64,000 bases of DNA from Chrysomallon squamiferum. Taxonomy: Eukaryota; Animalia; Mollusca. A model generated the notes under the pieces. It was not told the origin of the DNA. It was given only the letters and a program-made list of their open reading frames with translations, and did not search any database. The DNA lies in contig CM022665.1 in assembly GCA_012295275.1 (NCBI GenBank), positions 2,914,001 through 2,978,000 of the forward strand, written 5' to 3'. Position 1 is the first letter of the stretch. Every line of letters starts with the position of its first letter. Made by a program: the position numbers and the translations under genes. This document shows, one piece after another, positions 1 through 42,663 of the stretch.

Positions 1-557
1 GTTGAAATTGCAGTAGTACACGACTTCTATTTGTAGACGACGTAGCAAATAAACTTCACCCACAGTAATTGCAGGATCACCTTTATTTTCAAATGAAGCA
101 ATATCAAAGAATATGGCGTATTTGAAGCTACCAATGAGATCTTCAAATATATTAAAGTGTATCCTTTGAGCCTCACGTATTATCTCAGTGTTTGTGTTGA
201 GCATCTGGGATAGCTGATGCGCGTTGTATCCATGATGTATAAGACGCAATTTCAGAAATTTTTCTAATTCTATCTTATTTTGTTTTAGGTAACTAGATTC
301 CAGGTCTGGATAAAGCTTTGTCTGGCTTAAAAGTTTGAAAGATTCTGCCCCGAACGTTCTTTGCTGAAATACTTCTGCCAGAGAAATATCGGCTTTCTTA
401 GTTTCTGAAAGACTAGCATCTCCTGTTTCATGATTGCGGGTAAATTTGGAGATTATTCCGCAACTGCCAACAAGTGCAGACACTGCAGTAACTAATACTA
501 CAAACATCACTAGAAGCATTCTTCTGTCGTATTTGCTTGACTTTGGTACATCAGCTG
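1..557 (-). CDS. Coding exon 3 (truncated by window edge): type II TM anchor, stem, and N-terminal part of a polysaccharide pyruvyltransferase-like domain (Pvg1/EpsO-like)
   Basis: Acceptor acattttctttag|CAG at 559-558 is phase-compatible with the donor at 824. The frame stays open for about 185 codons to position 1: AADVPKSSKYDRRMLLVMFVVLVTAVSALVGSCGII...REAQRIHFNIFEDLIGSFKYAIFFDIASFENKGDPAITVGEVYLLRRLQIEVVYYCNFN. The NKGDPAI..GE..LL..L.IEVVY stretch matches the recalled N-terminal motif of pyruvyltransferases. Confidence 0.75.
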
Positions 558-645
558 CTAAAGAAAATGTTTTTAATTATAACCAATAGAAATTATCTAA
601 TTATTACACACAAACACACACAAACATTGTCTCACTGAATTTTAA

Positions 646-691
<46 letters not shown>

Positions 692-824
692 CAGTAATAA
701 AAAAAAAAAAAAAAAAAAAAAAAAATGTATAACATTATAGCAATAATAACTTAATAACATTAAAATAAGGAGTTTTATAGAAAGATTATAAATATTTTTG
801 TATTTGTTGTTAATACTGACATAC

Positions 825-1788
825 CTGGTATGATGCCGTTTTCTTTGGTTGTGTCGTTACTGGTTATTTTTTCGTGTAGCAGTATCACAAGTCCCAGCGA
901 ACAGACCACGAGACCGCCAAAGTTCCACACATTCGCGTGTCTTTGTCCGAACAGATACAGCAAGAAGACAACAGAGACTCTTTTCAGGATGTTGCAGACT
1001 GCGTGGCTGAGGACTGTCATACAGCGCAGGACGACGTTGGTAGACACGTAGGAGTAAACCACGTGAAAGAAGCTCGACATGAGCATCACGGAAATGACAA
1101 ACAGGGACGTTTTAGGAATGACTTTTCTCGTTTCTGCGGCATAAATCAAAGCAGCGAAAACGACAGAACTCGTCACAACAGTTACGATGTTGATGACAGG
1201 TCGAAGTCGACTCTCTTTGGATTTAGTTTGTCCTAGTTTTATGGCAACGTTTCTTACCGCTAAGATGATGTTGGAGCTAAATGCCAAAAGCGCGCCTAAA
1301 GAGACGGAGAACGTTGCAAACGGGTTACCCACAAACACGACGGCGCCCAGTACAATTAACGGCAGACTAACTAATGTTGATGTTGTCACCGACGTTGCCA
1401 GGACGAGACGCTGAACCAGAGCTGTCGTGATGGGTTCCATCAGTTTGATGGCAAACGTCGACGACGCTGTCATGAATCCCATGCTGCAGTTCGTGCAGAA
1501 GGTGGCAGCAACGTGCGACAGCGTCATGACGTAGAACACACTGTCTTTTCGTTGTTGGATGTCCACTAATAAAAAACACATGACTGTTTGTGAGAAAGTC
1601 AGAGCTAAAGAGAACAGAACTGTGTAATCGTGGTGTCGGACAGAAGTAATGCTGGTGTAAAGGAAGGCTTTGGCAGTCTGATGACAAAGAAAAGAGACGA
1701 CTGTCCAGGTTAGAAAGATGCACACTCCTTGTACGACACGAAACTTTGATATCTGAAAGCAAATTGTTACATCGTCATTTTCCACGCC
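825..1788 (-). CDS. Coding exon 2: triose-phosphate/PEP translocator (TPT, SLC35E-like, DMT superfamily) multi-pass membrane domain
   Basis: ORF 775..1785 has about 9-10 hydrophobic segments and TPT-family signatures: STFAIKLMEPITT (cf. SFTHTIKAxEP), GALLAFSSNIILAVRNVAIK (cf. GFxxAxxSNxxxxxRNVxSK) and LSHAVCNILKRVSVV (cf. THSVxNxxKRVxVI). Acceptor ttttag at 1790-1789; donor CCAG|GTATGT at 824 (phase 1). Confidence 0.85.
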
Positions 1789-2143
1789 CTAAAATAATGT
1801 GTGCAAGTCAAAAGTTTCGGATTATGTGCTGTTTTGTTATTATTTCTATTACACTGCTTCTATTACCATTACCTTTACAACAGTCACCACTACAAAGACA
1901 ATGATAACGATGCTTGCTACTGTTAAATTGCTACTACTACTATTACTCCTACTGCTGCTATTATACTGCTACTACTACTACTACTACTAATGTTTCTACT
2001 ACTACTACTACTGATACTACTACTCCTGCTACAACTATTCCAATAATTTTATTATTGTACCCTTAACGAAATCAGTATCACGTTCTGTATCATATATGAA
2101 CAACAGTATCAACAAAATTAATATGTAAGAATTTACGTCTTAC

Positions 2144-2158
2144 CGTATTTTCTTTCAT
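2144..2158 (-). CDS. Coding exon 1 (MKENT) of putative TPT-family transporter / pyruvyltransferase fusion gene
   Basis: Minus strand reads ATG AAA GAA AAT ACG followed by a consensus donor GTAAG at 2143-2139. Phase 0 matches the acceptor of the next exon (ttattttag|GGC GTG GAA at 1788). The exon is very short, so the start assignment is inferred. Confidence 0.6.
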
Positions 2159-3577
2159 CTCGCAGCCTCCCTTTCCAACAGAAGTACTAAAAATAACTGC
2201 TGCACATTTCAAATGTCGTCAAACCCACCTTTCTTACGTTAATCCCACAGGCATTGAGTTTGTTAAGGCTGATATCATGTTTGATGGAAATCTGTGAGAA
2301 CTTGAGGCCTTTTCTTCTGGCAGTTTAGATACGCAATGTCAAGAGATTCTGTTTTACAACATAAAACAACGAAATGCCCGTGGCCACGTGTTCGCTAACA
2401 GTTTGAAGCGTAATAAAGATCAAATTTAATTAAGCAAGTTTATAAAGATATTTCAGTAATAGTAAATGCTAATGTTTGATATGATTTTTTCTGAATTGTT
2501 TTTAGAGATATGATGTGAAATATTTACTAATGTTTTGAGACTGTTTTTTTTTTTTTTTTTTGTTTGCTTTATTTATTTATTTATTTATTTTATTTTATTT
2601 TATTTTATTTTATTTTATTTTATTTTATTTTATTTTATTTATTTATTTATTTATTTATTTATTATTTTGTGTTTGTTTGCTTTTTTGTTTGTTTTATTTA
2701 TTTATTTATTTAATTATTATATTTTTATTTTTATTTTATTTATTTATTTTTATGTTTTTTGTTTTTTTTCGGAGCTTGTGGGGTTTTTGTGTTTAGTTGT
2801 TATTTGCTCTTTTTCTTTTTCTTTTTTTGTTTTACTTAATTAGACCACATACATACTTACATACTTACATATATATATAATTTGAAAACAAAGAAATAAT
2901 AAAAATATTTCGTATGTATATAAATAAAGGGAAATAACTCTTATTAGAACCTATTAAGATGCAGATAATTAACTTACATAATGATGTTCATGATGAGGAC
3001 AATAAAGTAATAAGAAACAAATACTTTTAAACGAATTTTACAATATTTTGTTTTAGCATGAAAGCCGTTTTTATTCACAGTATTTTATCTTGTCTTGAAA
3101 AACAGTCGCTATAATCAAAACTGTTTAATAAGGCTTTACAAAATTCAACAAAAGCAAACAATGGTTTTATAAACACACACAAACACAGAAATGTATGTGG
3201 GTGGGGTGATTAATCGACGACCCAAAGGGCTGGAACTGCCAGGAGACTCCGCCTGCATACCTCTTTCCCCGACACTTTTTGTTTTTTTGTTGTTTTTTAA
3301 ATTGCATTCTGGGAAGGAATTGGCAAGGGAGATAACTAAGTTAGTGTCTGTCATCATGGATCCGCGGGAAATTAACGACATTGTTACATTACCACCAATA
3401 TCTACTGTGCATTACATCATCAGACTATTTTTTTTTTTTTTTTATTTTTTTTTAACCTCGACAGACTATGTGGTTTGCGTATATATATTCAGAAAAATCT
3501 GTTTAAATTCCTAAACTTCAGTCCTCTTTCCTATTTATTTTATTTTATTTTATTTCATCTATTTATTTATTTATTTA

Positions 3578-3620
<43 letters not shown>

Positions 3621-4199
3621 TTAAACGCAAATTAATGTTAGTATCACCGGATTTTCGAATAAACTGGATATAAAGAATTACTGAGTTCTAAAGTACATCG
3701 GTATTTTAGCCTGAAAAGTACACCAGACCGTGTAACAACTTGGATGCATTATACATTTCACATAAATAATTTAGACGTCTTGAACAGATAAACTTTGTTT
3801 ATTTAGAGGTTTAAGTCTAACGACATTAGACTGGAATTAAAAATTAATCAGAGCTCTTCTTTTGATAAAAAAAAAAACCGTGTTTTTTTTTGTTTTTTTT
3901 TTCACTTTCAAATTCTAACAATAAATAAGTTTGTGTAAAAGTATAAATTTTTCTTAAACAACACTTGTCAGTGAGTGATAACAGTAAGTTTTCACCTTCT
4001 GTGACGTCAGACCTAAAAATAGAACCGCCGACCTCAAATCTAGTTTATGTAGCAAGGTAAATTGCACATCACGTACACATTTTACAGTAAGCCTATTTCT
4101 GTTCAAATTACAAAAATATTTTTAATTAAAAGTTTAGTAATAATCTTTAAAATGTTATTTGAATTTAATAATATCCATATTTTATTTTCCAAAGATATC

Positions 4200-4266
<67 letters not shown>

Positions 4267-4967
4267 TCTTCATTGTTGCTATTTAATTGGTTACACAGAT
4301 CAAACGCCTGTATAAATGCATTATCATTATTATTATTTGATATGAACAAACATATGAGTGTAATTAATTAACAAGATAGTGACAAATGTGATGGGTTTTA
4401 TTAATACTGCAGGAATCGAGTGCAAACAGCAAAGAGCCTATAAATAGCTCACCTGTTAGAAAGTAGTCACGTGATGAAAAAGGGTCAAAGCGGAAAATCG
4501 ATTATTATAATAATAATAATAATAACAACAACTACAACACTAAATAAAAAAAAAATTAAAAAAAATGTAGTAATGTCATCTATACATCGTATTTTGACAT
4601 GCAGTATTATTTGTTTGTGACTGTTACATTCATCAATATTTGTATAAACTTCAGCTGCTGCTGCTGTTGTTGTTGTTCTTTTTCTTAATTAGTGTACATA
4701 CAAACAACGTTCATTAATAATGATTTTACAGTTGAGCTTAATGGCCGAAATCAAAATGATATTTCCTTTTTCATCATCATCATCATCATCATTATTATTA
4801 TTATTATTGTTGTTGTTGTTGTTGTTGTTGTTGTTTGTTATAACTACTAGTACTACTGTTTTAACTTCGTTGTAGAAGTCGTTCGTCATTGATATTTTTC
4901 CTATTACGTCTTTTATTGTTATTTTGACTTCATTTGTATCAGTCTTTTGTTATTGTTTTTTCTTCCT

Positions 4968-5100
<133 letters not shown>

Positions 5101-5420
5101 TCTTTTAATCAGCGTGAACATAAAGAACATTTCATGTCTACACCACTATACAGAATATATATAATATATATTCATATACAGATCCCTTCTGTAAGCGCTG
5201 CCCCTAATGATGAGCATGACTGAACTTTCTACTGGATGTGCGATAACAGATTATTTTAGTTAAAGCACGCTTGTACAAACAGTTTTTCTATCGCTGGGAC
5301 TGACCTGTGAATATTTATACTTTAATCTGCCATACACGGCACTCTCTTGTCCTGCCACGGGTTACGTTCAAACGAAAACATTTAAACTAAACTGTCAACT
5401 AATTTGTAATTCACTAATAC

Positions 5421-5462
<42 letters not shown>

Positions 5463-6045
5463 TTTTCTCTCTTGTCAAAGGTTAAAGTCCCAAGGGCTTC
5501 GGAGCAGCTAATTAAAGAACTCTCAAAGTATTATGTGAACAATGATCGGTTCTAAAATAACATTCATTTCAGCGTGGTTAGGCGTTGACAGGAGGTGGAG
5601 CTGCGACATTAGCCCCCGGATGTTGACATTGTCTGGTCAGCCATTCGGATTAAAGAGGTAAAAAGACTCAATTAGTGGAGCACTGTTAAACACCAGTCTT
5701 CCTTGATTCGTCATGACACGGTTCACAATCCAATTGAAGCCATTCAGATGATTGTAATGCAGTCGGATTAAACTTCGTTTTCATTAACAAATCAATGGGG
5801 TTTGGGGTTTTGGGGAAAAGAAAAAAAAAAAAAAGGTACGTGTTTTCGGTTGTCGCTCGTGCTTCACACGCAAAGACACTGCTGCTGCGTAAGCTTTGAA
5901 AACGAAAGAACTCATTTCCTTTCTCGAATATCCCTGTATTCCATTTAAATTTTTTTTTAAAAATAGATAAAAAATTTTTTTTGAAAAAATAGGTGAAAAT
6001 GACTTAAAGACATTTTTTTTGAAAATAAATGTTGTTAGTTATTAA

Positions 6046-6102
<57 letters not shown>

Positions 6103-7246
6103 TTAATGCAAAGTGTTATTTTCATGATTCTTAAACTGGAAACAGTAACTGGAATTTTCGCAAAAAATTATTTTCAAAAATTAGTATAAAATAAGAAATG
6201 CGTTAGAACTTGGAAAACAAAATGTGCGTGCGTATTGCGTGCATTTATGTGCGTGGTTATAAGCAAACAAGGACAGAGATGCCAACGAAAGTGTGTGTGT
6301 GCGTGTGGGGGTTGTTGTTGTTTTTTCACCCATACCATGTTTGTTCATCCATTATATGACAAAATGTTTTTGAAAGCACCATCAGAAAATTATAATATAT
6401 CCAGTTGCCTTTCTTTGATGTTTTTCAGTCCCAGCTTTATGCTGCATACTTCAGAAGAGGGAAAATAAAAGAAACTATAATAATGGAACCTTACACTACG
6501 TATTAGTTTTCACACATTTTATCGTTGTCGGTTTATAAAATGATAATATAATACAGATACGATCTAAAGGTGTTTTTATGATGGTCTTCGTCGGCAGGTA
6601 CACGACCAAATACAAAATTATAAGCTTCCAGCTTACAAAAGATGATTCAAAATACATCAAAATATTATCTAAATCTCGTATTATCTTCCATCGTTTGAGT
6701 ATGGCCAGAACTAGTATCTCCTTACAATGATGTTTACATCGTATGATGAAGAAGAGCAGATGAAAAACTAGCTTCATTTTCAGGCTAATAATGAATAATA
6801 ATGTGGAACTTTAGTTCACCTATTAAGGAATCTTTTATAATTTATCTCGGTATATCTGGTCGTAAATAAAGACATGGATATAAAAACCTTTTTCTAATAT
6901 GTTATGAAATCATTTGCATACGAATGGAAAATAAAAATCGTTTTAATCTGGTTTCAGGTGTATAATAATTATATGTCCTATTTTTTTATTATAACCCAGT
7001 AATAATATTAGATAATGTTCAAAATGTGGTGGGAAAGTTGCTAGGCTTTTGTGCTCAGTCATATGTATGTAAGTATTAGTAAGTATTGTCGTTGGGTTGT
7101 TGTTTGTTGTTGTTGTTGTTTTTGTTTTTGGCTGTGCGGGTTATTATCTATTTATTTGTTTATTTTATTACTTTTGTTGTTTTTTTTTTTTTTTTTTTTT
7201 TTTTTAGATCCAGTTGGTTGGTGATAGTTACTTTATTATTATTATT

Positions 7247-7301
<55 letters not shown>

Positions 7302-7308
7302 TTTGTTG

Positions 7309-7343
<35 letters not shown>

Positions 7344-7843
7344 TTTTTTTATTATTATTTACTTATTTATTTTTTTACTATTCTTTAAATTATAAAATTA
7401 TTATTACATTTTTTTTTAGTTTCATTTGGTTGTGTCAGGTACTTTATTATTATCATTATTTATTTATTTATTTATTTATTTACTTATATTTATATTTATA
7501 AGTCCTTTTTTTCTTCTTTTTTTTAGATTCAGCTGATTGTGCTAGCTATTTACTAAGAAGTAAGTATGAAATCAGGATCATGATATACCTTTATGTCTAC
7601 AAAAAAACCCTGTTTAATACCTATAATCCAGTTATAGTTAATTATATTATTTATAACACCTGTGATCACTGTGGTTTTTTATAATTTAGATTGTTCTCTA
7701 GATAATTAATTCACTTTGTGTCTGGTTTCGAATAAATCAGAACAGATGAAGTGGATTAGATTCGTTTTTGACAAAGTCACTCCATTGAAACGCGTGAATA
7801 GATAAATAAATAAAACAAACACAAAAACAAATTAATTAACTGA

Positions 7844-7890
<47 letters not shown>

Positions 7891-10800
7891 GAGTAAGTAA
7901 ATAGATTTGTTTAAATTTATTATATATATATATTTTTTTTTTTTTTTTTTTAAATGACCATATTGGTAGAGTTATGATCCACACATATTTTGTTTTCATT
8001 AGAATTATAAAAAGGAAAACAGGAGAATTTTTTTTATAAAAAGCGGACAAAACATGTTTAGTGTTTGGTTACATGGCTTATTTATAAGGTTAAGGATAAC
8101 AGAATTAAGGATGAAGAAAACCTAGTGAACAGATCTTCATCAGCAGCGGTGACAAACTGGCTGAGTGAAAATGACACATCAGATTAGAACTGATTCAATT
8201 TTTTAAAATTGTTTTTGGGATCATTTTCTTGCCTTAATACAAATTTTGCCGGCCGTTGTGTAAAATCTTTTTTATTTTTTTATTATTGTTGTTGTTGTTG
8301 TTGTTATTATTATTATTATTATTATTATTTTTATTATTTTATTTATTTATTTTTTTATTTATTTATTTATTTAGTAGATATATGTCTTGAAGAATCCATT
8401 GACGAGAGAAGCAGAATGTTCAGTGTTAAATTCATAATATTTAGAATTTCCTACCAAAATTTGTTACACTTATTATTAACGTTGAGTACACTTTTCAGAC
8501 TACTGAAATATTTAAAGATTAAAGGAATTGATTTTAGATTTTAAAATGTTTATTGATCTTTTAGTTACAAACAGATGGATGTTAGGTTATATAAATAATG
8601 AGATAAAAAAAATATATATACAGAGAGAGAGATTGCGAAAAACGAAGTTAAAAACGTGAAAACATTTGTCAAGCTAACATCTTGTAGAAAAACAACGTAA
8701 TATACATTTAGATAAGAACAATAAAATAAATGTCAGAAAGTGCAAATGAATTTATTGTTACACTGGTAATTACTCTATTTACAAGAACACGTACTAAGAA
8801 CTCAGGTCCTTACGTTGTGTAGACTATTATTCATCTACGTTCTGAAAACGTCCTTAAAAGGGATCCGACGCGTTGAAAAGAAGCCAGCACGAAGAAGTAT
8901 ATGATTTCTAACAATAATCAGTCTTAACACAGTTTTTACAACTGCGTGCTAAATACACCCGATATTACAAGGCGTATCCATATCTGCGTTCACACCTCCC
9001 GAGTACACTAAATAACCCGAGTATCTAGGGATTTATCTGAATATCAATCTGAGTTTAACTCCAGTACCCGAGTCTTGTCACTGCCATTCACATTCCCTTG
9101 AAAACAGTTAGCTGTGAAGTCTTTCAAACCGAAATATTTTAGCCAAGTTGTTTCCATAACACACTGCATTTATCTCGGCGGTTTTTGATCCCCATAAGAT
9201 AATAAGAGAATGGTGGCCGGGTACAAGCTAGCACATTTTATTATCTGACTTAGAGATAATTGAAGTCGAAAGTAAAGCGAATAATCGGCAACATCGGGAA
9301 TTTCTTCACAGGACAGGATGAGTGATTTAAATTATAGGATCAGCCGAGATAAAAGGGAGAAGACGTTTGCGTCTTTCTTGTGCTGACAAAAAGCAAACAG
9401 CAGCAGAGACAACAACAGTTATAATACTATTAGTTTATAAGACTTAATTTTTAATTGAAAAAAAAAAAAAAAAAAAAAAATGTTGTCACAAACAAAGCCA
9501 AAATAAAGGTTATTTTAATACATGTCTTCAGAGGGTTTGTATCTGTGACACGTTACTTCAGATTTTATCTTTTTTTTTTTAATGGCTTTGAATAAAGTTA
9601 AAATAACACATACACGCAAGACATATATATAAAATAAATAATTTTCTTTTCAGCCTATAAAATACCAGAAACAAAATTTCAATTAATAATACCTCCTTTC
9701 TTAAATATCTCAGTTTTAAACAAACACAGTACTATTTTTTCCAAAAAAATAAAAAATAAAAAAATAAAAATAAACGCCCCAACAATCCATTTCATTCAGC
9801 AGCTTTGTATTTTATATCAAAGTCTGATCTGCTAAGTAAAAATCTCAGCATTCTTCAGCTGAAAAGATCTTAGGCTGTAATATAGATTATTATCCGCGTT
9901 GCAGTCATTATTATACTATCATTATTACTTACCTCAGTTTGACAACCAGAGCGAGGTCATGATCAAAAACAGTCCCCTTTCAAAGAACGCAGGATCAGTC
10001 GTAATGTTTTAACTAAACACTTTTCAGTTGAACCACGTCATCTGTTGGTTTTAGACAAGACTTGTTAGAGTATTTAGCTTATAGTTTTTATTTAAAAACT
10101 TATGGTTCAAACATTCATATCTTATTTATCGAATAGTATACTGGATTCGTGTTCATGGAACTGACTTTCAGAAATCGAAATTATCTGAGCGTAGAAGAGA
10201 AATTATCGTCTTAAATCGCTTTGATGAAAAACTTTCGATTGATAATCGATAAACAAAATGATTAATTTGTGGAAATTGAAGATCAATTACCGAATTCCCT
10301 TCTGATCAAACCCAGCAGACATCTCTGTTCCTTGCTGAATCGTGTAACTCTGGACAGACTGAGTGTTTTTTATTTTTTATTTTTTTTATTTATTTATGTT
10401 TTTTTTTTTGTTGTTTTTTTTCTTCTGTATAAATCATTGTGTTGTGCATGTTCATGACTAGTAACTAAAATAAAGCTGATTAATAAGTATTTCTAACATT
10501 CTTCCAATACGTAGTCTCTGTGTGTTTTGTATGTGAAATAAATTTAAAACACGAGTAGGTAGTCTACATGTTTAACCCAACAGAATTTGAAAATTAATTT
10601 CTATACACATCCATGTAACTATGCTCCCACACATATACGTATATACCCCGTATATGAATATATTTTCAGTTTAACGTGGTATCTCTGTATTAACATGGGG
10701 AAGTAAAACAAATAATACGAAGAGAAGAAATCTGAACGCGAAAACAACTACACCGAGATAAAAAAAAAAACACGAAAATTTTATACGGGTGCAAAAAGTA

Positions 10801-36455: not shown

Positions 36456-38130
36456 TCTTCATTAAGTGCAGCGTTAAAGACTATTTAGCTCGTGAACAGA
36501 TTATAACATTTAAAAATGCGGATTTGCGTGGAACAAAAAAAATAAAAATAAAATCATTTTATTATTATCTATAAAATTCCAACTGTGTAAAACATATACC
36601 AAATAAATGAGAATATTATTATTCTATACCATTTTAACCATGAAAAACAAATTTAAAGGGTCATAGTTAGAATATTGTGTTTAATAATAGCTGATCGCTG
36701 ATTTTGCGCGACACGACTGAAGGTTTATTGTAAACATATACACACACATATTTAGACAATTATAATAGATAATACCAACAACAGCAAAAAGTTACTAAAT
36801 TGTCAGTCAAGCGTGGCTCTAACACTTCATCTATCACCCGTACGTCGCTGAAGTGTTGCTGAAATGTCTTCAATGTTAGTGCTATAATTTAGCGATTAGT
36901 GTTAAGTTTCATTCCGCCGCGTCTTGTATGTTGTACAGTGATATATTATCGTGACAAACGTCTAAAGTGCAACGCCTTTTTTTTTTTGAAAAATAGATTT
37001 ACTTTGATCAGTTTTGGCTATATCAAAAGGAATATGCTATTATCTCAAATCGTCTGCTTATGGATCATTAACGCTTCATTTAAAAAAAGTTATCCAACAA
37101 TTCGACCAGAAAGCTCTTGAAATGTGCTCGATGATAAGCATCTCCGAGTTTAAAGGAGATAAGTAATTATCACTCAACTGAAATAACATGCTAAATGTAC
37201 GGATGGATGGGTAAGCGATCGGACGTAAGGACGAACGGATGGTTAGATAAAAATTTAAAACAGTGATCTCTCTCACGAACGTAGCAGAAATCTGCTTAAC
37301 TTTTGAATTGGATTGTTTTTGATGACAAATAATCTTTCATCGTATACAGCTTTATTTATTTATACGTTTTGTGTAATTTTATTTTTTTATCCATCGTTTT
37401 TTTAATTTATTTATTTATTTATTTAAATCAACACACCTGTCAAAAACAAAAAAAATAAAATAATAATAATAATAATAATTGTAAAGCGACGTCATTCAGA
37501 CACAAATAATAACATTTAGTTAAAATATGTGTTTTAAAATAAAACGACGAAAACTGTAATTTTACAAAAGATGAATATATTGTTTATTACCTATGTATGT
37601 CTAGCTGGTTTGTCGAAAATAAACATTCTTCTTATTCGTCGACATAGAAATCGTTAGAAAATTTTAGTTCGCACGAATTCTTTATTATTATTATTATTAT
37701 TTTCCTTTTTGTTTCGAAATTGAGAAACTGACTTGTGTTTCAGCTATGATATTAATAAATATCAGTATAACATAAATTAAATTAAAAAATGAAAAGAACC
37801 CCCCACACACACACACAAAAACAATAAGTTCATGATAATAATTCTGCAATTAATCCCAACCCCTGGTCGCAGGGTGTGTCCTCATTAGGGTCACAAGGGA
37901 CTTTCACACAATGCTTACATTACGTCAAATGGAAAATAAAAAGGACTGTGAACCAATATATCAATGTAAATATTTGTTTCTGTTTACATTATTTATAACA
38001 TTTTTAGGAACTTCTTTAACATTTGGTAAAACGTTATTTTATTTATTTATTTATTTATTTAACTAATACCGTCACTGTTCAAAACAGGAATTTAAAAATA
38101 AAAACAATTTTTTTTTTTTTCTTATTGCAG

Positions 38131-38333
38131 CTGCCTACCAGCCCTTCCCGGGCTTCATGAACCCGGCTGAGATTGCACGTGCGAATCAGAAGAGAAAGCG
38201 AAGACATCGCACGATCTTCACGGAGGAGCAGCTGGAACAGCTAGAAGCGACGTTTCAGAAGACGCACTATCCCGATGTCCTACTTAGGGAAGAACTAGCC
38301 ATCAAAGTCGACCTCAAAGAAGAACGCGTAGAG
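38131..38333 (+). CDS. gsc: Goosecoid exon 2 (homeodomain helices 1-2 and start of helix 3)
   Basis: Acceptor cttattgcag at 38130. Encodes [48 protein letters not shown], the characteristic Gsc homeodomain. Donor GAG|GTACG at 38334 (phase 0) is the typical PRD-class intron before VWF. Confidence 0.96.
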
Positions 38334-38471
38334 GTACGAGCTTTACTGACATACACTTCAATATTTAACAACAACTCGCCACTTTTCATTATTTACGTTA
38401 TTAGATTTCAAGAATACGACGGATTTTATTATTATTTATTTATTTATTTTACGTACGGTATTACGACTTCT

Positions 38472-38592
38472 TGAGAGAGAAACCCATGTCTGTTTAATTC
38501 CTTTTTAATTAAAAACAAGGACATTTTTCACGATGTCCGCCCGCAGACAGAAAAACCTTAAATCACGCGCATTTTGATAAATTAGTCGTGGT
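38472..38592. repeat. Possible decayed copy of a dispersed SINE-like gastropod repeat
   Basis: Motif order gagagagaaaccc...caagg...cgcagacag...agtcgtgg resembles, from memory only, an abundant dispersed repeat of some gastropod genomes; unverified. Confidence 0.2.
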
Positions 38593-39751
38593 TTTAGAAA
38601 AGCTTTGTGAAGATATTTATATTATTTATTTTTGTTTTGAGATTCTGAATAAGTCTAATCTTAACAAAAATCAGTTGAGCTAATATTAGATTTAATAATT
38701 AATGTGTTTATTTCGTTATCTGAACTTCACTACGCCATTTTGTCTGTCTTAATAAATACAACATGTTTAGAATACTTTTAAACAATATACAATAACTAAA
38801 TAAATAAAGTTACATTTATTTATTTATTTATTTATTTATTTATTGTTTGCTACATTACTTCTTCCCCGCCTTGCCTCACAAAACTTAAATGAGAAAAGGG
38901 GCAAAAAAGCGTAATTTTTCATTATAAAAGTATGAAAACTCGCATTATTTTAAAAATTCACGAGTGCTCGTAAATTTCGCCTCTAAATATTATGCTAATT
39001 TTGACTTCAAAATAAACTTTTTATAAAACAATCTAAATAAAAATAAAACATTTATCTAAATTACCGCAGCACTGTTCTAAAATTATTTTTTATATTTCCA
39101 AAAAAAAAAAAAAAAATTAAAATAACAAATGAAATAATATTCTCTAGTTCTGATCGCATTAAATCATGTTTTGATCCAATACTAACAAAATGATATTAAA
39201 ATATATTTTATTTAAAAAAGTAATAATATTAAAATAAAAGAATTAAAAAAAAAATTTATGATTGAGTTAATTTTTTAAATTTTATGAAATATATATTCAT
39301 ATTTTTATTTGTTTCACTATTTTTTTTTTTTTTTATTTTCGAGATAACTTACATTAAAATATAATTTACACAAGAATTTTTGCTGTTCAGTATTATAACT
39401 TAAATTTTAATCGAATCTTATTCAAATTCAGAATCCACTCTGACTGACGTTATTATTTAAAATATTGTTTTCTGCTGTATAAATATTTTTATGCTATATC
39501 AAATGTATCTGGCAATATCAGAAAAACATATTTGTCAGCTAAACTATTAAAATTATATAATACGTCCATTTACGTTTATTATTGTCATGCGATAACTATT
39601 ATTATTATTATTATTATTATTATTTTTATTTATTTATTTATTATAATTATTATAATTTTATTTATTTAATTCAATAATTATTTTAAATTAAAACTACAAC
39701 CATCTCTCTAAATATTTTCTTGTATGTGTATGTTTCAGTGTGTACAGTCTA

Positions 39752-39799
<48 letters not shown>

Positions 39800-41704
39800 C
39801 CTTCTTGCTCGTTTATAAGCAGTGGTGACTAATTTTTTTAAAGCTGTATAATGTTCTGACAGAAAAATTTGCGGGTCATTGCAAACGACGTATTATATAC
39901 AATAAACCATACAGAAGTTAAATAAGGTTTAGACTCAAACTATTTACACTTTAAAAAGTTCTGGTTTCATCGGAGGAGATCAGTTAGCATTACTTGAAAG
40001 ATAAATAGAAGTATTTCACGCCTACCGTTCGGCCCCCTGGTAAGCTCAAAGACAGGTCTGCATCCTGTTAATTTGTTTTTCCTTTTCTTCTTTCTAACAT
40101 TCCTTCTTAAACTGGGGCAAACAGAATTAAAATAACTAAAATTTACAAAAAAAGGTGCAGAAGGTCTGAGGTAATCATTTTTTTTTTTTTTTTTTTTTTG
40201 TGTAATCTGTAAACTTGAAATAAGCGTGTTAAAATTATCTTTATCATCGATATCGTCAACAGCCAATCAAAATGGTAATAGTGGCAATAATAACAATAGT
40301 AATAACGGTAATGGTAATAGTAAGAGCGATGATAAAACAGTAATAGCAGTAGTAAAGAATAAATAAATAAACTATTTCTGCAAAATTAAATATTTTATCA
40401 TTTTTAAAGCATCATTCAATATCAGAAAAAATCAAATACTCAGTTTTCAGTTTTAACTGAAATAACTATTTTTGACAAGTTTAATAAATATTTGAAAGCT
40501 TTTCATTCAGATCTTTTTTTTTGTATGAAAAACAAAATTCTAAACAATATGTATTTAGTACGCAATATTACATACAAACATTTCAGTTACAAATAAATAA
40601 ATGTTTTATTTTTGTAATTCATTCATTCATTCATTCATTCGTTTGTTTCGTTTATTTTAATTTTAATTTTAATTTATTATATTTTATTTTATTTTGAAAC
40701 TGGAATGTGCAAAGCTGTTAGAAGTAAACATCGAACAGTATTTTGTTCACCGTTTTTAAGTTTCATTTACTTATTCAAGTTAATAGTTTAAAATGACATC
40801 TATGTCACTGGTATTATTACTACTTACTGCCTACATTGATGCTGATGATCATTATAATGATGACGACGATGTTAATCTGATAATAAAATTAAGAAAGTGA
40901 ATTACGTTTAAACTGAAAACACTTTTCCAAATTATGCTAAGAAAGAGAAAATAAGTTTATGTTGTTTTTCTTCTTCTTACGCAAACAGCCCGTGGAGTAA
41001 TAGCTGTACGAGATTATCTGAGTGTAATTCTCTCAATCTAGTACCACTGTCTTTTCAACACAGGATCTAAATCAGCATAACCCTAGGCGCGGGCATTCTC
41101 TGGATGTCAGTGCTTTACGTAATAATCACATTATTTTCGCTTGTTTGTGCTTATCCGAAACATCTCTAAAATGTCCACCAACAGATAGAAACTTAGCTGG
41201 CTGTTAAGAAGTTGATAGTTTAAGATACAGGAGCCTGCCATTATCTAGTTTAATAATCTCTGATAGTTTTCTCGTCGCTGGCAAACACCAGCCCCGTGGC
41301 TACTGGCGATCACACTGTTGAAAATGATTTTATTTTATTTGATGGCCTTTGTGGGGCAAGCGGAGCAGTGTTTTTATTTCTAAGCGATTAGGCAGCCGCC
41401 CCGCCATCGTATCATTTAGAAGTATTAGGTGAAGACGGTAAATAAAATTATAATAGAATGGTTGATGATCGCAGACAGACAAACAAGGGTACGCGATGAT
41501 GCGACATCTAAAACGACGGCGCTCAAAGGATAGAGACGGGACGAGCTCTTGTGACGGCAGCTCATGACAGCGGCGTTTACGCTGGTTTCATCTTCTCAAA
41601 AGTGCATCGTTAGTTTGTCTTATCAAATCTGACAGCATTCAAAGCAGATCCTCTGTTTTCTGAGAAAACCCGAGATATCACTTTAAATATATTAGTTGTT
41701 TTGT

Positions 41705-41760
<56 letters not shown>

Positions 41761-42315
41761 CTCGTTCTCGTTCTCTGTTTGTGTGTATTCTCTTCAAATT
41801 ATCATATTAAAAATGCTTAATGCTTCTGAATTATAGAGAAATTTTCGTGTGCCCCCGAGCGATGTCGTGCGTTTTATGACACTGTATTGAAGAGTGGAGT
41901 GTACGACCCAGGGGCTTTATTTGTGATCAGACTGTTCCGTGTACTCACAAACTCCGTTCAATAACAACAGAATTAAAGAATTACTTATAGATACTGGCTT
42001 CGACATCAAAGGGAATCCAGCCGACAACTGTCGCGTTTCACAGACAGAGACGAAATATCAGTAGTCTGTTATAATTATCACACTCCCAGCCTGCTGACTG
42101 TCGTGTTCAACAAATTCATGGATTTATCATAAAGCTGTTTCATGAAAAAAAGAGAGAATGTCGATAGTATCAGATGAAATCCATTGTTCACATAGTCCCA
42201 TAAGTTTTATCGTGTTTGGTGGCCAATATATTTTTTATTAGTTTCAGAATTATAGAATTTTGCTGGTGATTTCGAAAATGTTACATTGGTAATTATATTT
42301 ATCTCTAATCTTCAG

Positions 42316-42663
42316 GTCTGGTTCAAAAACAGAAGAGCAAAATGGAGGAAACAAAAGAGAGAGGAAGAAACAGCTAAACGGACGCCGTCGGAAAGTGCAG
42401 TATCTCAGACGAGTGGCGCCGAACAGCCAGAAGACAAAGACGCGGAACATCCCGAAGACAAAGATGCGGATTCTTCGATATGCGTTGATGACGACACGGA
42501 TGATTCGGAAATTCACGCACATCACGAAAACAGTGCTTCGTCGCATCTCGGACAGTTCGGTGTTGAAAAGAACAAGTGTCGACATCCCTCCAGTGACAAT
42601 GAAACGCGACACCGCCAAGTAACGACCAAAACACACGTGGAATTACAATCTGCTGCACCTTGA
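42316..42663 (+). CDS. gsc: Goosecoid exon 3 (recognition helix with K50, acidic C-terminal tail)
   Basis: Acceptor cttcag at 42315. Encodes VWFKNRRAKWRKQKREE (K50) through TGA at 42661-42663. The spliced CDS from 32429 is 828 nt (275 aa). Confidence 0.95.
   Translation, partial: VWFKNRRAKWRKQKREEETAKRTPSESAVSQTSGAEQPEDKDAEHPEDKDADSSICVDDDTDDSEIHAHHENSASSHLGQFGVEKNKCRHPSSDNETRHRQVTTKTHVELQSAAP

What the first reader, a model, noticed from the sequence alone, without database searches (positions are those of the whole stretch)
1..2158. Putative PEP-transporter / pyruvyltransferase fusion gene: a self-contained glycan pyruvylation system in an animal
Seen in sequence: exons 2158-2144, 1788-825 and 557-<1 join through consensus GT-AG sites in matching phases (0, then 1) into one ORF. 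That ORF has a full TPT-family transporter domain, a short cytosolic linker, one more TM helix, a stem, and FDIASFENKGDPAITVGEVYLLRRLQIEVVYYC (NKGD at 87-76). Established knowledge: an N-x-G-D-x-x-I motif near the N-terminus typifies polysaccharide pyruvyltransferases (Pfam PS_pyruv_trans; S. pombe Pvg1, Bacillus EpsO), which use PEP as donor. In S. pombe, Golgi pyruvylation needs Pvg1 plus separate TPT-family PEP transporters (Pet1/Pet2). Inference: both halves of that pathway are fused here, so the protein would import PEP into the Golgi and use it to add pyruvate ketals to glycans, a sialic-acid-like negative charge. Pyruvylated glycans are known from bacteria, algae, fission yeast and sponges; I know of no characterised bilaterian pathway. 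The ORF track misses the enzyme exon because it is open at the window edge.
Basis: partly seen in the sequence, partly recalled or inferred. Interest (0 to 1): 0.93.

Follow-up and report, generated by a model that had tools for sequence, protein, structure and literature searches.

The report
Snail transporter-pyruvyltransferase fusion gene
This snail gene joins a membrane carrier of the phosphate-translocator family to the start of an enzyme of the sugar-pyruvylating family, as whole genes do across snails and in a clam, so the protein likely imports its own donor (phosphoenolpyruvate) into the Golgi and is a likely maker of the pyruvate-capped glycolipids long known from sea-hare nerves.

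Summary
Three GT-AG exons join in frame into 512 stop-free codons: a 10-helix TPT-family carrier (Pfam 45 bits, cut-off 30), an 11th helix, a stem and the first ~30 residues of the enzyme; about 270 residues lie beyond the edge. All 19 long homologues carry TPT plus PS_pyruv_trans. The fusion is named in 15 gastropod genera and one clam, Aplysia included, and in slime moulds and alveolates; the scan noted it before in Cryptosporidium and unnamed protists. The window keeps all seven phosphate-binding residues of GsGPT and the Pvg1 D106 equivalent; 33 of 33 homologues keep D106, R217 and R337. Likely mechanism: PEP in, pyruvate ketal onto a glycan, phosphate out; inferred, untested. No RNA for this animal was available. 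The architecture is already in public annotation. A new variant of a known pathway that gives an orphan glycan a testable candidate enzyme.

The parts
2144..2158 (-). Likely first coding exon (5 codons, supplies the start Met ahead of helix 1)
   Evidence: donor ACG|GTAAGA, phase 0; nearer of 2 candidates in 1800-8000; not confirmed by RNA
1789..2143 (-). Intron 1, GT-AG, phase 0
825..1788 (-). Exon 2: whole TPT-family (drug/metabolite fold) carrier, ten helices, plus start of the linker
   Evidence: Pfam PF03151 45 bits; model pLDDT 88.6, pTM 0.87; 54-62% identical to Gigantopelta copies
1669..1671 (-). Lys equivalent to GsGPT K128
1435..1446 (-). Lys and Glu equivalent to GsGPT K204 and E207
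1237..1254 (-). Arg and Lys equivalent to GsGPT R266 and K271
1054..1056 (-). Tyr equivalent to GsGPT Y339
979..984 (-). Lys-Arg equivalent to GsGPT K362-R363
558..824 (-). Intron 2, GT-AG, phase 1, 267 nt, in-frame stop at 777-775; tandem acceptors 557/554
1..557 (-). Exon 3 (open at window edge): linker, 11th helix, stem, start of Pvg1-type pyruvyltransferase
   Evidence: 53% over 197 columns to P0004; 62% over 124 to P0002
460..516 (-). 11th membrane helix, predicted to carry the enzyme into the lumen (4 K/R before, 2 after)
   Evidence: hydropathy 2.55
76..87 (-). NKGD motif; its Asp corresponds to Pvg1 D106
   Evidence: D106A nearly inactive per PMC4872226

Best explanation
This is a spliced snail gene for one membrane protein that joins a ten-helix TPT-family carrier, an eleventh helix and a Pvg1-type domain, and it likely works in the Golgi as a self-supplying glycan pyruvylase: the carrier would swap cytosolic phosphoenolpyruvate for lumenal phosphate, and the predicted lumenal enzyme would put pyruvate as a ketal on a terminal sugar, probably galactose. 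Shown: exon structure and frame, both family assignments (enzyme through homologues), kept phosphate-site and catalytic residues, the extra helix. Inferred: Golgi location, lumenal orientation, PEP as cargo, PEP/phosphate exchange closing the loop with the phosphate that pyruvyl transfer releases, galactose as acceptor, and a role in making the 3,4-pyruvylated galactose glycolipids of Aplysia nerve. The full protein is predicted at about 780 residues.
For: 19 of 19 long homologues carry both domains, each above its Pfam cut-off. P0002 matches Pvg1 5AX7 at E 3e-39 and GsGPT 5Y78 at E 5e-10; its model gives Z 34.2 (rmsd 2.3, 313 aligned) to Pvg1 and Z 25.2 (rmsd 3.2, 258 aligned) to GsGPT, against 20.4 or less for the SLC35/nucleotide-sugar carriers. 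The window has 7 of 7 phosphate-binding residues listed in bioRxiv 10.1101/206912 plus E207; in 33 homologues R266, Y339, K362, R363 are 33/33, K204 32/33, K128 and K271 30/33; D106, R217, R337, H339 33/33. An 11th helix is present in 32 of 33, with more K/R before than after in 23, fewer in 5. Five protist fusions keep K204, E207, R266, K362, R363, D106, R217, R337 (5/5 each). In S. pombe the same two functions are done by Pvg1p with Pet1p/Pet2p (PMC4872226, PMC6801904); ketal transfer from PEP releases phosphate (abstract of PMC8615578). Aplysia, whose congener has pyruvylated glycolipids, has the fusion (P0069). Five Logan contigs of 2.7-4.1 kb hold whole 723-791 aa fused frames, and slime mould and Piridium fusions come from transcript assemblies. 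In run X1, 11 of the 17 listed exonic differences are synonymous and none makes a stop (expected share 0.24-0.34; p 4e-4 to 0.01).
Against: No biochemical data for any member. Two substrate-side residues of GsGPT differ (H185 is Thr in the window and 32/33 homologues; H201 is Phe/Leu), so cargo cannot be read off. Pvg1 makes 4,6-ketals whereas the Aplysia glycolipid has a 3,4-ketal, and the Pvg1 acceptor-pocket position H168 is variable among homologues. R217 and R337 of this copy are outside the window. The 11th helix and linker are low-confidence in the full model (pLDDT under 50). Relationship to Pet1/Pet2 was not tested. 62 of 129 early hits lack the carrier part; many look like single-exon gene calls, but one clade of 25 may be stand-alone enzymes, so fusion may not be required. 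One Biomphalaria pfeifferi paralogue (P0220) has lost both sites, so dead copies occur in this family.
Confidence: 0.7

Rival explanations
1. The enzyme is a real pyruvyltransferase, but the fused carrier moves a different phosphorylated metabolite (or only phosphate) and PEP reaches the lumen by another route.
For: H185 and H201 equivalents differ from GsGPT; the kept residues bind the phosphate group, which any phosphorylated cargo shares; Atlas neighbours of exon 2 are a mix of TPT, UAA and nucleotide-sugar carriers.
Against: The same pairing is kept in molluscs, slime moulds and alveolates with both sites intact; PEP is the enzyme's only donor in the characterised cases; GsGPT is the best structural match of the carrier.
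Confidence: 0.13
2. This particular copy is not a working fusion: it is broken beyond the window edge, or is mainly expressed as separate products (intron 2 retention would give a carrier-only protein ending at 775).
For: About 270 residues are unseen; no RNA holder listed; intron 2 is 267 nt with an in-frame stop; paralogues are many and one is degenerate (P0220); some databases split such loci in two.
Against: Consensus splice sites in matching phase; all visible key residues intact; synonymous excess in a second sample; a contig of X1 runs 1187 nt past the edge, room for the rest; fused frames on transcript-sized contigs in relatives.
Confidence: 0.09
3. The fused protein uses the same folds for another chemistry or compartment, for example a non-galactose acceptor on a secreted mucus or egg polysaccharide at the cell surface, or transfer of a PEP-like donor.
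For: Only about 31% identity to Pvg1; variable acceptor pocket; molluscan glycolipids also carry aminoethylphosphonate.
Against: D106, R217, R337 and H339 are invariant; Pvg1 stands far above other GT-B folds (Z 34 against 13.7 or less for the ordinary glycosyltransferases).
Confidence: 0.07
4. The sequence is contamination from a symbiont, alga or protist.
For: The parts resemble plastid and yeast proteins; some slug copies are named 'chloroplastic'.
Against: Spliceosomal introns, microsatellite-rich AT-rich flanks, an animal homeobox gene in the same window; exon 2 groups with Gigantopelta aegis at 98/97; homologues sit on contigs up to 150 Mb in many snails.
Confidence: 0.01

Closest known systems
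Schizosaccharomyces pombe Pvg1p (PDB 5AX7) with the Golgi PEP transporters Pet1p/Pet2p
   Same: Pvg1-type GT-B enzyme with D106, R217, R337, H339; a membrane helix before the catalytic domain; a TPT-type carrier as predicted donor supply
   Different: Here carrier and enzyme are one chain; multi-copy in molluscs; H168 pocket differs; the known molluscan product is a 3,4- not 4,6-ketal; orthology to Pet1/Pet2 not tested
Plastid phosphate translocators, Galdieria GsGPT (PDB 5Y78/5Y79)
   Same: Ten-helix fold and all seven phosphate-binding residues plus E207
   Different: H185 is Thr and H201 is Phe/Leu; carries a C-terminal 11th helix and enzyme; host is an animal without plastids
Pyruvylated phosphonoglycosphingolipids of Aplysia kurodai nerve (Araki et al. 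1989, 1992, seen only as cited in PMC6801904 and PMC6994554)
   Same: A gastropod product that needs exactly this chemistry; A. californica has the fused gene
   Different: No enzyme is linked to it in the passages read; the link is my inference
Public gene models with PF03151+PF04230 in molluscs, Physarum, Ceratiomyxa, Vitrella, Piridium (ESM Atlas cluster of 60)
   Same: Same architecture and kept residues
   Different: Automatic annotation only ('uncharacterized', 'pyruvyl transferase 1', or misnamed 'chloroplastic'); no functional description found

Membership tests
TPT family (PF03151) | Pfam score above the curated cut-off | tested here: met
   45 bits against 30 on the window's exon 2
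TPT family (PF03151) | Ten-helix drug/metabolite carrier fold | tested here: met
   Own model, ten long helices, pLDDT 88.6; homologue model Z 25.2 to 5Y78
Plastid-type phosphate translocators | Phosphate site K128, K204, R266, K271, Y339, K362, R363 | tested here: met
   7 of 7 in the window (residue list; numbering mapped from alignments)
Plastid-type phosphate translocators | GsGPT substrate-side His185 | tested here: not met
   Thr in the window and 32 of 33 homologues; so not filed as a GPT/TPT sensu stricto
Plastid-type phosphate translocators | Phosphate/phosphorylated-metabolite exchange | not testable with these tools
   Needs liposome assay
S. pombe Pet1/Pet2 PEP transporters | Orthology and Golgi location | not tested
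   No Pet sequence came up in my calls
PS_pyruv_trans (PF04230), Pvg1 type | Pfam score above cut-off in this gene | tested here: inconclusive
   Only about 30 domain residues in the window, no hit; 19 of 19 homologues pass
PS_pyruv_trans (PF04230), Pvg1 type | Catalytic Asp106 | tested here: met
   Asp of NKGD at 78-76; 33/33 homologues
PS_pyruv_trans (PF04230), Pvg1 type | PEP-binding Arg217, Arg337, His339 | tested here: inconclusive
   Outside the window; 33/33 in homologues
PS_pyruv_trans (PF04230), Pvg1 type | Two-domain GT-B-like fold of Pvg1 | tested here: met
   On homologue P0002: Foldseek E 1.6e-15, TM by target 0.82; Z 34.2
PS_pyruv_trans (PF04230), Pvg1 type | Membrane anchor before the catalytic domain | tested here: met
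   Helix at 516-460; 32 of 33 homologues
PS_pyruv_trans (PF04230), Pvg1 type | Ketal pyruvyl transfer from PEP to galactose | not testable with these tools
   Needs enzyme assay

The most novel reading that the evidence does not exclude
Molluscs carry a whole, expanded, one-gene glycan-pyruvylation pathway, a carrier-enzyme fusion shared with scattered protists, in which PEP import and phosphate export are tied to catalysis in one chain; it would be the first defined animal pyruvylation machinery, the source of the pyruvate-capped glycolipids of gastropod nerves, and a sialic-acid-like charge system in snails including schistosome hosts (Biomphalaria, Bulinus).
Probability: 0.5. Interest if true: 0.78.

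Novelty: new variant of a known kind. Interest (0 to 1): 0.6.

Why it matters
Pyruvylated galactose was found on sea-hare nerve glycolipids in 1989, and the two reviews I read in passages name an enzyme only for yeast and bacteria. This family supplies a named, clonable candidate in Aplysia itself (XP_012941009.1) and in laboratory snails, with a ready test in fission yeast mutants. It predicts pyruvylated glycans across gastropods and some clams, where they may have been missed. A donor carrier fused to its Golgi enzyme is also a compact model for donor supply, and a possible one-gene tool for adding sialidase-resistant negative charge to glycoproteins.

Tried and rejected
No whole genome is held, so the 3' end could not be read. 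No RNA holder listed; three RNA runs added by study laid nothing, which is no evidence either way. Exon 3 alone: no Pfam pyruvyltransferase hit. Exon 2 alone: no PDB sequence hit at E<=1; the profile and homologue did hit. The 80 metagenome loci kept of 356 were prokaryote-like enzyme matches at 27-39% identity, and none showed a carrier part in six frames; they served as outgroup only. Direct transfer from bacteria was considered: in a quick, unrooted tree of 97 enzyme domains (SH-aLRT only; P0025, P0191, P0242 and unfused rows without both anchor motifs were dropped) molluscan sequences fall with alveolate and unnamed fusions on one side of a 96-support branch, and prokaryote-like rows and slime mould fusions on the other; this neither supports a bacterial donor nor settles one or several fusion events, and no AU test was run. 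Kleptoplasty link (slug copies named 'chloroplastic') rejected: same family in non-photosynthetic snails. Domain co-variation across 33 fusions (rho 0.35; same nearest neighbour 22 of 33) is confounded by kinship and not used. Literature: 'pyruvyl transferase'+'gastropod' gave 0 papers; searches listed no row joining the pyruvyl term with a mollusc, but these loose searches are crowded and weak; the HGT-chimera preprint has no mention of pyruv, mollus, gastropod or triose; supplements of the metazoan HGT compendium could not be read and may bear on origin. A pyruvylated galactan from a Pomacea snail is recalled from memory only; and the two of its six papers that I opened did not confirm it.

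Full report
Observation. The minus strand of 1-2158 holds three exons as described. Exon 2158-2144 ends at a GTAAGA donor, exon 1788-825 has a polypyrimidine AG acceptor and a CAG|GTATGT donor, and exon 557-<1 follows a TTTCTTTAG acceptor; phases 0 and 1 match and the joined frame has 512 codons without a stop. A tandem acceptor three bases on gives the same frame. Intron 2 is 267 nt with an in-frame stop at 777-775, so it must be spliced for the fusion. Exon 2 passes the Pfam TPT cut-off (45 against 30 bits); exon 3 alone gets no pyruvyltransferase hit, since only about 30 domain residues are inside the window. No genome is held. A contig of run X1 covers 1-634 and continues 1187 nt past the edge, but those letters are not shown; homologues need a median of 270 more residues (n 160).

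What it is. Searching longer proteins with exon 2 gave 19 hits, and 19 of 19 carry TPT and PS_pyruv_trans above the cut-offs. Profile searches (33 hits; best 120 of 224 shown) add named fusions from 15 gastropod genera (Gigantopelta, Haliotis, Lottia, Patella, Littorina, Nucella, Pomacea, Aplysia, Elysia, Plakobranchus, Bulinus, Biomphalaria, Physella, Bradybaena, Candidula) and the clam Ruditapes; no non-molluscan animal name appeared in the rows shown. Many species have several copies, for example a run of Pomacea genes on one contig. Of 129 proteins, 67 include carrier sequence and 62 do not; the latter are scattered among fusions in the tree, as expected of single-exon gene calls, except one clade of 25 unnamed proteins that may be stand-alone enzymes. 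The window's exon 2 groups with Gigantopelta aegis at 98/97 (34 rows), so the host is a gastropod near that lineage. The spliced product aligns as one segment across the junction with three Gigantopelta proteins. An exhaustive profile search (best 150 of 7844 shown) found more distant fusions: 16 of 29 long proteins scanned hit both families (two with TPT under the cut-off), and of 10 looked up, four are named protists: Physarum, Ceratiomyxa, Vitrella, Piridium. The Atlas has a 60-member cluster with both families, mostly Mollusca.

Anatomy and sites. Homologue P0002 matches Pvg1 (5AX7, E 3e-39) and GsGPT (5Y78, E 5e-10) by sequence (profile 3e-55 and 1.5e-19) and by fold (Z 34.2 and 25.2). 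Its model shows ten carrier helices, an eleventh low-confidence helix and the enzyme; the window's own exon 2 folds with ten long helices at pLDDT 88.6. Mapping residue numbers through those alignments, the window keeps K128, K204, R266, K271, Y339, K362, R363 and E207; passages of bioRxiv 10.1101/206912 list these as the phosphate-binding residues and report that K204A, Y339F, K362A, R363A and R266A abolish exchange. H185, on the substrate side, is Thr, and H201 is Phe or Leu. The Asp of NKGD is Pvg1 D106, whose Ala mutant is nearly inactive (passages of PMC4872226); D106, R217, R337 and H339 are invariant in 33 of 33 molluscan-type fusions, while H168 varies. Five protist fusions keep both sites (Y339 in 4 of 5), and one Biomphalaria pfeifferi paralogue has lost both. 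An eleventh helix is found in 32 of 33. That ten-helix Golgi carriers have both ends in the cytosol is established knowledge, recalled; on that basis the eleventh helix would place the enzyme in the lumen, as for Pvg1.

Is it expressed and under selection? No RNA holder was listed for this animal. For relatives, five Logan contigs of 2.7-4.1 kb hold complete fused frames, which fits spliced transcripts though intronless genes are not excluded, and three protist fusions come from transcript assemblies. Of the 17 exonic differences listed for X1, 11 are synonymous, 6 are mild replacements and none is a stop; the neutral share is 0.24, or 0.34 for transitions alone (p 4e-4 and 0.01). X1 may be related to the window's source, so this is modest support.

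Mechanism. Most likely (0.7): a Golgi protein whose carrier exchanges cytosolic PEP for lumenal phosphate and whose enzyme transfers pyruvate from PEP as a ketal to a terminal sugar. The logic rests on S. pombe, where Pvg1p depends on Pet1p and Pet2p (PMC4872226 passages; PMC6801904 section 5.1.3), on phosphate being the by-product (abstract of PMC8615578), and on both sites being kept together across distant eukaryotes. The product side exists: 3,4-pyruvylated galactose on a phosphonoglycosphingolipid of Aplysia kurodai nerve fibres (passages of PMC6801904 and PMC6994554; the Araki papers were seen only as citations), and A. californica has the fusion. Against: no assay, changed substrate-side residues, a different ketal position from Pvg1, and the unseen 3' end. 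Rivals: another cargo (0.13), a broken or split copy (0.09), another chemistry or compartment (0.07), contamination (0.01).

Origin. In a quick unrooted tree of 97 enzyme domains, molluscan rows sit with alveolate and unnamed fusions, apart from prokaryote-like rows and slime mould fusions. A direct bacterial donor is not supported; ancient fusion with many losses, transfer between eukaryotes, and repeated fusion all stay open.

Novelty. Both parts and the two-protein pathway are known, the fused models are in public databases, and the scan noted the same architecture before in Cryptosporidium and unnamed protists. I found no paper describing the fusion or an animal pyruvyltransferase gene (only one search is a strict search, and subscription journals are largely missing). 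It is a new variant of a known kind whose value lies in linking an orphan animal glycan to a clonable gene family. Interest 0.6.

Noticed in passing
window 38067-42663 +: Homeobox gene split by a GT-AG intron (38333/42316) inside the homeodomain (Pfam hit, junction); looks goosecoid-like, a name recalled from the motif and not tested.
   Followed up: partly
window 558-824 -: Intron 2 is a multiple of three with an in-frame stop; retention would give a carrier-only protein. Tandem acceptors 557/554 differ by one residue.
   Followed up: partly
window 1232-1272 and 1418-1464: Short contigs of run X1 match only these conserved carrier motifs with several differences, suggesting paralogues in the same animal.
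   Followed up: no
protein P0220 (Biomphalaria pfeifferi, KAK0059266.1): Paralogue that has lost both the carrier phosphate site and the enzyme's D106/R217/R337 equivalents.
   Followed up: partly
protein P0087: Named as from a Candidatus Thiodiazotropha MAG (2.3 kb contig) but nests among molluscan-type enzymes; likely host DNA in the bin.
   Followed up: partly
protein P0184: A 252-aa record labelled Digyalum oweni falls in a Littorina 90% cluster; likely host transcript in that data set.
   Followed up: no
proteins P0006, P0009, P0014-P0016, P0044: Sacoglossan slug copies are named 'chloroplastic' translocators by NCBI; they belong to this snail-wide family, so the names should not be read as algal transfer.
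   Followed up: partly
proteins P0066-P0129 subset and P0205-P0249 subset: A clade of 25 unnamed enzyme-only proteins next to the venerid clam clade, and a clade of 12 unnamed enzyme-only proteins next to the molluscan group; possibly stand-alone enzymes or other animal lineages.
   Followed up: partly
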